A stretch of 64,000 bases of DNA, taken from Escherichia coli. Its GTDB lineage: Bacteria > Pseudomonadota > Gammaproteobacteria > Enterobacterales > Enterobacteriaceae. Location: assembly GCF_003334335.1 (NCBI RefSeq), contig NZ_QOWQ01000030.1; one strand, 5' to 3'. The position numbers are program-made. Every line of letters starts with the position of its first letter. Within the stretch, counting starts at the first letter, position 1. Of this stretch, positions 35,801 through 38,800 are shown in pieces.

Positions 35801-38800
35801 AACTCTGTGGGTACAGGTTTAAAGGGCAGTCGTTGACCCAGAAATTTAAGGAAAAGTGGGCCACCGATCAGTGATGCCATCAGCCCAACCAGCAAACCGT
35901 AGACGATCACCGAACCGATATCTGCGCCCAGCTTATTGGCAACATATAAAGCAGCCGGATGTGGAGGAACCACGCAGTGCACTGCCATCAATGCGGTACA
36001 TAGCGGAATGGCAAGCTTTAATAATGAGGTATTGGTTTTTTTGGCAATTGAAAAAGCCAGAGGAATCAATAGCACGACGCCCACTTCAACAAACAGCGTG
36101 ATGCCACAAATCAGGCCAACCAGCACCATAATGACATCAACTGAAAGCCAGCGGCAGCGTTGAAGTGTCAGACCAATTCTTTCTGCGGCCCCGGATACTT
36201 CCATCATTTTTCCCAGTATCGTGCCAAGGCCGATAACCGCTGCGAGGAACCCCAGCGTTCCGCCAATTCCACTTTCAATAGCATTTACCATATCCAGTGG
36301 CCCCATGCCCATCATCGTTCCCACGAAGAAGCTGGCCAGCAACAGCGCCAGAAACGGGTGGAATTTGAACTTCACGATGGTCAGTACAATTAACACGATG
36401 CTGATAAGCAGCGTGCTCACAACCCAGATTTGAGAGTGCATATCTCACCTTCCCCTGTGATTAACCTGATGATATTGGACAAAAAAACAACGCAGGCTGA
36501 CAAACGATAAAATTTGCCTTTCACATGAGGTAAATTGCATCAATGGAGTGATTTACATCTAAAAATGAAGGTGAATTGAGATATGGTTCACTTTAGCTCA
36601 TCTCATAGCTGAAATTTTGCCGCTATTTTTTTACACTTAAGCGAAAAATGAGGTGATTATGGAACCCCTTCGTGAAATAAGAAATCGGCTGCTTAACGGC
36701 TGGCAATTATCAAAAATGCATACTTTTGAAGTGGCTGCCAGGCATCAGTCCTTCGCCCTGGCGGCAGAGGAATTGTCGCTGAGCCCCAGTGCGGTAAGTC
36801 ACCGTATCAATCAGCTGGAAGAAGAATTGGGCATTCAGTTGTTTGTTCGTTCCCATCGCAAAGTGGAATTAACGCACGAGGGGAAACGTGTTTATTGGGC
36901 GCTAAAATCGTCGCTGGATACCCTGAACCAGGAAATTCTTGATATCAAAAATCAGGAGTTATCGGGAACGTTAACTCTGTATTCCCGGCCCTCTATCGCC
37001 CAATGCTGGTTGGTGCCCGCATTAGGTGACTTTACACGCCGGTATCCGTCTATTTCGCTCACCGTGCTCACTGGTAATGACAACGTCAATCTGCAACGTG
37101 CCGGAATCGATTTGGCGATCTACTTTGATGATGCGCCGTCAGCGCAACTCACTCATCACTTTCTGATGGATGAAGAAATCCTGCCAGTATGTAGCCCGGA
37201 ATACGCTCAAAGACATGCTTTAACCAACACGGTAATTAACCTGTGTCACTGTACGTTGCTCCATGACAGACAGGCATGGAGCAACGACTCCGGTACGGAT
37301 GAATGGCATAGTTGGGCGCAACATTATGCGGTTAATTTGCCGACATCTTCTGGAATTGGCTTTGATCGTTCTGATTTAGCTGTTATTGCCGCGATGAATC
37401 ATATTGGGGTGGCGATGGGAAGAAAACGCCTGGTACAAAAAAGGCTTGCCAGTGGTGAGCTCGTCGCGCCGTTTGGCGATATGACGGTGAAATGCCATCA
37501 GCATTATTACATCACCACATTACCGGGCAGGCAGTGGCCAAAAATTGAAGCGTTTATTATCTGGCTAAGAGAACAGGTAAAAACCACTTCATAATGAATA
37601 AAACCACGAGTTCCTGGTGTGCCTTATTCGGCCTGCTAGTTCGAATTTAATTTACGGTTTTTATGTGGTTTTAGGGATAAACACAAGGATGGTGTCCCCT
37701 GCAGGAATCGAACCTGCAATTAGCCCTTAGGAGGGGCTCGTTATATCCATTTAACTAAGAGGACAATGCGGCATGAGTATACCCGCTAATGGAGTGCGGG
37801 GTAAGTACGCTGCCGCTCGATTGCTTAAACCCTCGCCATTTATGCCGGGTTTTTATAATTTTTCTTAATGTTTTCCGCACGTTCTGCTTTTTGGCGTGCT
37901 TCTGCTTTACGCTTATTGCTCATGTCGTTACGAATCTGTGCATGACTCATTAACGCGAAGATAAAGGTGCCGCCGCAGATGTTCCCCGCTAAAGTAGGTA
38001 GTGCGAAGGGCCAGATGAAATCGCTCCAGTGCAGCGTACCGTTAAACACCAGATAGAGGATTTCAACAGAACCGACCACGATATGGGTGGTGTCACCCAG
38101 GGCAATAAGCCAGGTCATCAATATAATCACCACAATCTTTGCCGCACCCGCTGCAGGAAACATCCAAACCATAGTGGCGATCAGCCAGCCGGAAATGATC
38201 GCGTTGGCAAACATCTCGCTGGGGGTGTTCTTCATCACATCCATGCCGATTTTGACAAATGCATCGCGAGTTTCTTCATTGAAGATAGGCATATATTCAA
38301 ATGCCCACGCCGCAATACCTGTCCCGAGAATATTACCCAGCAGCACGACGCCCCATAACCGTATAAGTAAGCCGACGTTGCTCATTGTCGGTTTTTGCAT
38401 GACGGGTAGTACCGCAGTCACGGTATTTTCGGTAAATAATTGCTGGCGGGCCATAATGACGATAATAAAACCAAAGGTATAACCGAGATTCTCCAGCAAG
38501 AAGCTGCCCGGCACACCTTCCAGTTCGACTTGAAATATCCCTTTTGCCAGTAACGAAGCGCCCATCGACAGACCCGCCGCAATGGCTGACCACAGTAGCG
38601 CCATTGCGTCGCGTTCCAGCTCTTTTTCACCATCCTGGCGGATATGCTCATGAATTGCCATCGCCCGGGAGGGGAGTCGGTCTTCATCTATTTCTATTTT
38701 TTTGCCGCGCTCTTTTTCTTCGCTCTCAACTTCAATTTCGTCGCTGTGTTGATCAATTTTGTCGTTGTCCATGGTCTCTTCTCTTGAATTAGCACGTATA

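What the first reader, a model, noticed from the sequence alone, without database searches (positions are those of the whole stretch)
37595..37839. argW tRNA integration site is unoccupied: dsdC directly abuts tRNA-Arg(CCU)
Only about 95 bp separate the dsdC stop from the 3' end of argW, with yfdC immediately on the other side. As I recall the K-12 map, the CPS-53 (KpLE1) cryptic prophage sits between argW and dsdC, and argW is a recurrent integrase target in Enterobacteriaceae. This window therefore looks like the empty-site allele, which helps define att boundaries and strain background.
Basis: partly seen in the sequence, partly recalled or inferred. Interest (0 to 1): 0.4.

Follow-up and report, generated by a model that had tools for sequence, protein, structure and literature searches.

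The report
Empty argW phage attachment site
This E. coli carries an intact tRNA-Arg(CCU) gene, argW, with no prophage beside it: it is the K-12 sequence minus the CPS-53 cryptic prophage, a known allele found in about one in six complete E. coli genomes.

Summary
The observation and the interpretation both hold. argW, the tRNA-Arg(CCU) gene, lies at 37690..37764 on the minus strand. It is exactly 95 bp from the dsdC stop (37594) and 75 bp from the yfdC stop (37840).

The window is collinear with K-12 MG1655, with no gaps and 11 SNPs over 63.9 kb. The only structural difference is the absence of the 10,215-bp CPS-53/KplE1 prophage. The left and right K-12 alignments overlap by exactly 16 nt, CTGCAGGGGACACCAT (37689..37704, minus strand). 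This is the published KplE1 core, and it is also the annotated attP core of phages HK620 and Sf6.

The core occurs once in the 64 kb, even when three mismatches are allowed. There is no integrase, no scar and no second core. The site is therefore a clean attB.

The same uninterrupted junction is present in 911 to 938 of 5,426 complete E. coli genomes. The other genomes carry intS-type prophages or other islands at this position. An intact yfcU (a pseudogene in K-12), the SNPs and an extra IS186 indicate a natural K-12-like strain rather than a cured laboratory derivative.

The sequence cannot show whether the site was never occupied or was restored by precise excision. The finding is ordinary and already known.

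The parts
36659..37594 (+). dsdC, the LysR-type regulator of D-serine catabolism. Its stop codon ends at 37594.
   Evidence: ORF 36653..37594. The DNA is 100% identical to K-12 dsdC, b2364. RefSeq annotates dsdC in an identical strain.
37595..37688 (.). Bacterial arm of attB on the dsdC side. In K-12 this same sequence lies next to attR, 10.2 kb away from argW.
   Evidence: Identical to K-12 2476600..2476693. No terminator-like or promoter-like consensus was found. RNA folds are not better than shuffles.
37689..37704 (-). 16-nt att core CTGCAGGGGACACCAT: the last 15 nt of argW plus 1 nt downstream. It occurs once in the window.
   Evidence: It is the overlap of the two K-12 alignments. It matches once in 64 kb at up to 3 mismatches. 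It is identical to the published KplE1 core (PMC2951348) and to the annotated attP cores of HK620 and Sf6.
37690..37764 (-). argW, the tRNA-Arg(CCU) gene, intact.
   Evidence: ARAGORN. Rfam RF00005 at 63.4 bits. Identical to K-12 b2348.
37765..37839 (.). 75-bp spacer between the argW 5' end and the yfdC stop. It is upstream of argW.
   Evidence: Identical to K-12 2466234..2466308.
37840..38772 (-). yfdC, a formate/nitrite transporter family inner-membrane protein.
   Evidence: ORF of 310 aa. RefSeq annotation.

Best explanation
The interval is the intact, unoccupied bacterial attachment site (attB) used by IntS-family tyrosine integrases, those of KplE1/CPS-53, HK620, Sf6, Kapi1 and related P22-like phages. 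The site is the 3' end of argW, the tRNA-Arg(CCU) gene.

Shown here: the 16-nt core CTGCAGGGGACACCAT covers the last 15 nt of argW plus one downstream base, and it is flanked on both sides by purely chromosomal sequence. The window therefore has the B-O-B' arrangement. K-12 has B-O-P' at attL and P-O-B' at attR around the 10.2-kb prophage. HK620 has P-O-P' at attP.

Inferred from the literature on lambda-type integrases and KplE1: an incoming phage of this group would recombine its identical attP core with this site. Because the phage carries the same 16 nt, integration would regenerate a complete argW. It would place int next to argW and yfdC, and xis/torI next to dsdC.

The host is a natural E. 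coli whose flanks are 99.98% identical to K-12. It is not a K-12 derivative. Whether the site was never occupied or was restored by precise IntS/TorI excision cannot be read from the sequence.
For: The tRNA and the neighbouring genes are at the stated coordinates. Window 1..37704 aligns to K-12 2514287..2476584, and window 37689..63923 aligns to K-12 2466384..2440150. There are 0 gaps and 5 + 6 mismatches, and the two alignments share exactly the 16-nt core. The missing K-12 block is the annotated CPS-53 with intS. The four-way alignment of window attB, K-12 attL, K-12 attR and HK620 attP shows the expected arm swaps on either side of an invariant 16-nt block. The core is the published KplE1 core (PMC2951348). 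It is present at the annotated attP core of HK620 and Sf6. There is a single copy in the window. The same empty locus, a tRNA-Arg between dsdC and yfdC, is described for the Kapi1-free strain KP7. The Kapi1 att repeat AATGGTGTCCCCTGCAG shares 16 of its 17 nt with the window (PMC8787464). The uninterrupted junction is present in 938 of 5,426 (141-bp query) or 911 of 5,426 (1.5-kb query) complete genomes. Many natural strains match 25 kb across the site in a single piece at about 100% identity. yfcU is an intact 881-aa ORF here but a pseudogene in K-12.
Against: Nothing contradicts the empty-site reading. Four limits remain. (1) Recombination competence of this attB was not tested and cannot be tested with these tools. 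(2) The sequence does not say whether the site was ever occupied. (3) If the window comes from a short-read assembly, which the IS186 fragments at both ends hint at, a minority lysogenic subpopulation would be invisible. (4) The frequency estimate reflects a RefSeq collection biased towards clinical lineages.
Confidence: 0.95

Rival explanations
1. The site was once occupied by a KplE1-like element and was restored by precise IntS/TorI-mediated excision. On this reading the strain is cured rather than naive.
For: KplE1 is reported to remain excision-competent in vivo despite being defective (PMC2951348). The flanks are 99.98% identical to K-12, which carries the prophage. This closeness is compatible with recent loss. 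Site-specific excision leaves exactly the sequence seen here.
Against: Many natural strains with equally close flanks also have the empty site. One ancestral empty state is therefore at least as parsimonious as repeated curing. No sequence feature separates the two histories, so this rival concerns history only and does not change what the site is.
Confidence: 0.25
2. The window comes from an engineered or laboratory-cured K-12 derivative, such as a prophage-deletion strain.
For: The window is almost identical to MG1655 and lacks exactly CPS-53.
Against: There are 11 SNPs in 63.9 kb relative to MG1655. yfcU is intact where K-12 has a pseudogene. An extra IS186 lies in the yfcJ-fabB spacer, and no complete genome in the collection, K-12 derivatives included, covers that junction. 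No FRT or other scar is present, and the junction is the natural core. All K-12 derivatives listed in the searches carry the prophage.
Confidence: 0.02
3. Assembly artefact: the strain is lysogenic at argW, but the assembler joined the flanks through the 16-nt repeat or through reads from excised cells.
For: The window begins 12 bp inside one IS186 and ends 77 bp inside another. This is typical of short-read contigs that break at repeats.
Against: A 16-nt repeat is far below assembler k-mer sizes, so it would not cause a 10-40 kb collapse. The junction is identical to that of more than 900 finished genomes.
Confidence: 0.02

Closest known systems
attB of the KplE1 (CPS-53)/HK620/Sf6 IntS recombination module at argW (Panis, Ansaldi and colleagues; PMC2951348, PMC3509656)
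   Same: The 16-nt core CTGCAGGGGACACCAT is identical. It sits at the same position, at the 3' end of tRNA-Arg(CCU). The bacterial arms are the same as those flanking K-12 attL and attR.
   Different: Nothing differs in sequence. K-12 shows the recombined attL and attR halves, whereas this window shows the unrecombined attB.
Kapi1-free E. coli KP7 locus dsdC - tRNA-Arg - yfdC (Pick et al. 2022, PMC8787464)
   Same: The gene order is the same, and the empty site is used experimentally as attB. The phage int ends up next to yfdC and xis next to dsdC.
   Different: The Kapi1 paper reports a 17-bp duplication, AATGGTGTCCCCTGCAG. The window shares 16 of these 17 nt and has G instead of the first A, at 37688.
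The variable argW-dsdCXA island of E. coli (Moritz & Welch 2006, cited in PMC8787464; the paper itself is not held)
   Same: It is the same chromosomal hotspot. Other strains carry a UpaE/ipuAB island (CFT073), or intS plus a P22-like remnant plus csc sucrose genes that replace dsdC and part of dsdX (O157:H7).
   Different: This window has no inserted DNA at all and a complete dsdCXA.

Membership tests
attB of IntS-family (KplE1/HK620/Sf6) integrases | Core sequence identical to the phage attP core | tested here: met
   CTGCAGGGGACACCAT at 37689..37704 (minus strand) equals the annotated attP core of HK620 and Sf6 and the published KplE1 core.
attB of IntS-family (KplE1/HK620/Sf6) integrases | Core overlaps the 3' end of argW, tRNA-Arg(CCU) | tested here: met
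   The tRNA is at 37690..37764 (minus strand), so the core covers its last 15 nt plus 1 nt downstream. K-12 annotation shows the same overlap.
attB of IntS-family (KplE1/HK620/Sf6) integrases | Both arms are chromosomal (B-O-B'), with no phage arm on either side | tested here: met
   Four-way alignment of attB, attL, attR and attP. Gap-free collinearity with the K-12 flanks.
attB of IntS-family (KplE1/HK620/Sf6) integrases | Supports integrative recombination by IntS with IHF | not testable with these tools
   This needs an in vivo or in vitro recombination assay. It is inferred from sequence identity with sites used by KplE1, HK620 and Kapi1.
CPS-53/KplE1-type lysogen at argW | intS-type integrase gene next to argW | tested here: not met
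   No K-12 prophage DNA aligns to the window. Only 95 bp separate argW from dsdC.
CPS-53/KplE1-type lysogen at argW | Duplicated core (attL and attR, the attR copy annotated as pawZ in K-12) | tested here: not met
   One core match in the 64 kb at up to 3 mismatches. K-12 has two copies.
tRNA-Arg(CCU), argW | Cloverleaf tRNA with anticodon CCT, identical to K-12 b2348 | tested here: met
   ARAGORN. Rfam at 63.4 bits against a gathering score of 29. Identical to K-12.

The most novel reading that the evidence does not exclude
The source strain is a natural sister lineage of K-12, with 99.98% identical flanks, that lost a KplE1-like element by precise IntS/TorI excision. That would be field evidence that this heavily decayed, lysis-defective prophage is still mobile in the wild. 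The alternative is that the 10-kb remnant entered the K-12 lineage very recently and already degraded. A whole-genome phylogeny would be needed to decide between these.
Probability: 0.2. Interest if true: 0.2.

Novelty: already known. Interest (0 to 1): 0.08.

Why it matters
The practical value is modest. The window gives a clean attB reference for the argW hotspot. It shows that the strain lacks CPS-53/KplE1 and could be lysogenised by HK620-, Sf6-, Kapi1- or CUS-3-type phages and by some Stx2 phages that encode IntS. It also marks the strain as K-12-like but not K-12. It opens no new biological question: the core, the integrase module and the variability of this locus are all published, and about 17% of finished E. 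coli genomes share the allele.

Tried and rejected
- I scanned 37400..38000 for consensus promoters and intrinsic terminators, looking for a shared terminator between the convergent dsdC and argW. None was found.
- RNA folds of the 95-bp spacer on both strands are no better than shuffles, with z-scores of -0.72 and -0.36. No structured element is claimed there.
- Rfam gave a weak plus-strand hit to 'Plastid-ycf2' over the tRNA, 24.8 bits against a gathering score of 65.7. It is the antisense shadow of the tRNA and was dismissed.
- A search for a second or degenerate core at up to 3 mismatches found nothing.
- I looked for the source genome through the yfcJ-fabB/IS186 junction. No complete genome covers it; the best coverage is 92%.
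- Moritz & Welch 2006 (PMC1698345) is not held, so it is cited only through PMC8787464.
- The engineered K-12 derivative and assembly-collapse readings were considered and rejected. See the rival explanations.

Full report
**What is in the sequence.** ARAGORN reports a single tRNA in the 64-kb window: tRNA-Arg with anticodon CCT at 37690..37764 on the minus strand. Rfam's tRNA model confirms it at 63.4 bits. On the plus strand a reading frame ends at 37594, and on the minus strand a 310-aa frame occupies 37840..38772. RefSeq annotation of strains with identical DNA names these genes dsdC and yfdC. It holds 95 bp from the dsdC stop to the argW 3' end, the 75-bp tRNA gene, and 75 bp to the yfdC stop.

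**Comparison with K-12.** In MG1655 the annotated order is yfdC, argW (2466309..2466383), cryptic prophage CPS-53 (2466369..2476583, beginning with intS and ending with torI), pawZ (a 15-bp pseudo-argW fragment, 2476584..2476598), then dsdC, dsdX and dsdA.

BLAST of the whole window against the K-12 flanks gave two gap-free alignments:
- Window 1..37704 aligns to K-12 2514287..2476584, with 5 mismatches.
- Window 37689..63923 aligns to K-12 2466384..2440150, with 6 mismatches.

The mismatches nearest the site are at 18790 and 39570, so 32288..39569 is base-for-base identical to K-12. The two alignments overlap by 16 nt, window 37689..37704, reading CTGCAGGGGACACCAT on the minus strand. Removing CPS-53 from K-12 in silico through this repeat gives the window sequence exactly, with no extra or missing base.

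**The att site.** I aligned four sequences: the window, K-12 attL, K-12 attR and phage HK620 attP. It shows the textbook pattern:
- The window shares its left arm with attL and its right arm with attR.
- HK620 attP shares the complementary arms.
- All four share an invariant 16-nt block.

[quoted passage not shown] It sits at the features annotated 'attP core' in the HK620 and Sf6 genome records. It covers the last 15 nt of argW plus one downstream base. Integration therefore regenerates a complete tRNA gene from phage-borne sequence. This last point is an inference from the geometry and from established knowledge of integration at tRNA 3' ends.

The core occurs once in the window even when 3 mismatches are allowed, whereas K-12 has two copies.

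**How common the allele is, and what sits there in other strains.** A 1.5-kb query across the site is covered contiguously in 911 of 5,426 complete E. coli genomes. A tight 141-bp junction query is covered in 938 of 5,426, or 17%. In the other genomes the homology breaks at query positions corresponding to window 37687..37694, at the core.

An intS-type integrase covering at least 80% of K-12 intS is present in 1,860 of 5,426 genomes. Twenty-three phage records encode IntS at 95% amino-acid identity or more. They include CUS-3, Sf6, HK620, HK633, IME10, Kapi1 and the Stx2 phage VT2phi_272.

Two examples show the variety at this position:
- O157:H7 has intS, a P22-like remnant and csc sucrose genes that replace dsdC and part of dsdX.
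- CFT073 has an integrase-less island with ipuA, ipuB and the UpaE autotransporter.

The Kapi1 paper describes the same empty locus in strain KP7, deletes it as attB, and calls the region hypervariable, citing Moritz & Welch 2006 (PMC8787464). argW is thus a recurrent and well documented target, and the empty state is a common minority allele.

**Strain background.** The flanks differ from MG1655 at only 11 of about 63,900 positions, but three features argue against a K-12 derivative:
- yfcU is an intact 881-aa frame (49072..51717), whereas it is a pseudogene in K-12. Two of the 11 SNPs fall within it.
- An IS186 end lies in the yfcJ-fabB spacer. K-12 lacks it, and no complete genome in the collection covers that junction.
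- No engineering scar is present at the junction.

Many natural isolates from humans, dogs, food and birds match 25 kb across the site in one piece at about 100% identity. The window therefore most likely comes from a natural E. coli whose DNA in this region is very close to K-12.

**What cannot be decided.** Site-specific excision restores attB exactly. A never-occupied site and a precisely cured one are therefore indistinguishable in sequence. KplE1 is reported to be excision-competent, so curing is possible. The many close relatives with empty sites make an ancestral empty state at least as likely. Function as an integration target is inferred from sequence identity and was not tested.

**Verdict.** The feature is ordinary and already known. 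It is useful as a strain marker and an attB reference, but not surprising.

Noticed in passing
window 1..12 and 63924..64000: Both ends of the window lie just inside IS186 copies, in inverted orientation with their left ends facing inward. Positions 1..12 are the end of the copy K-12 calls IS186C, next to nupC. Positions 63924..64000 begin a second IS186 inserted in the yfcJ-fabB spacer. K-12 lacks this second copy, and none of the 5,426 complete genomes covers its junction (best 92%). Both insertion sites read CGGGGATAnTnCC just before the IS end. This may mean that the source is a short-read contig broken at IS186 repeats, or that the strain has a new IS186 insertion.
   Followed up: partly
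window 49072..51717 (+): The fimbrial usher gene yfcU is an intact 881-aa ORF here but is annotated as a pseudogene (b4661) in K-12 MG1655. Two of the 11 SNPs relative to K-12 (50168 and 50808) fall within it.
   Followed up: partly
window 37595..37689: The 95-bp spacer between the convergent dsdC and argW shows no consensus intrinsic terminator and no fold better than shuffles. In lysogens this native downstream sequence of argW is moved about 10 kb or more away and replaced by phage DNA, so argW 3'-end formation evidently does not depend on it.
   Followed up: partly
L006 (O157:H7 ATCC 35150) and L005 (CFT073): Within the 40 kb fetched for each of these occupied genomes, the 16-nt core is present only once, at argW. 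No attR copy survives there, so these islands look fixed and could not excise through the core.
   Followed up: no
window 41062..41426 versus L002 24063..25877: Strain 300709, which matches the 1.5-kb query across the argW site (window 37000..38500) at 100%, has an ISEc20 (IS110-family) insertion between yfdF and fadL. The window lacks it, so 300709 is not the source strain.
   Followed up: no
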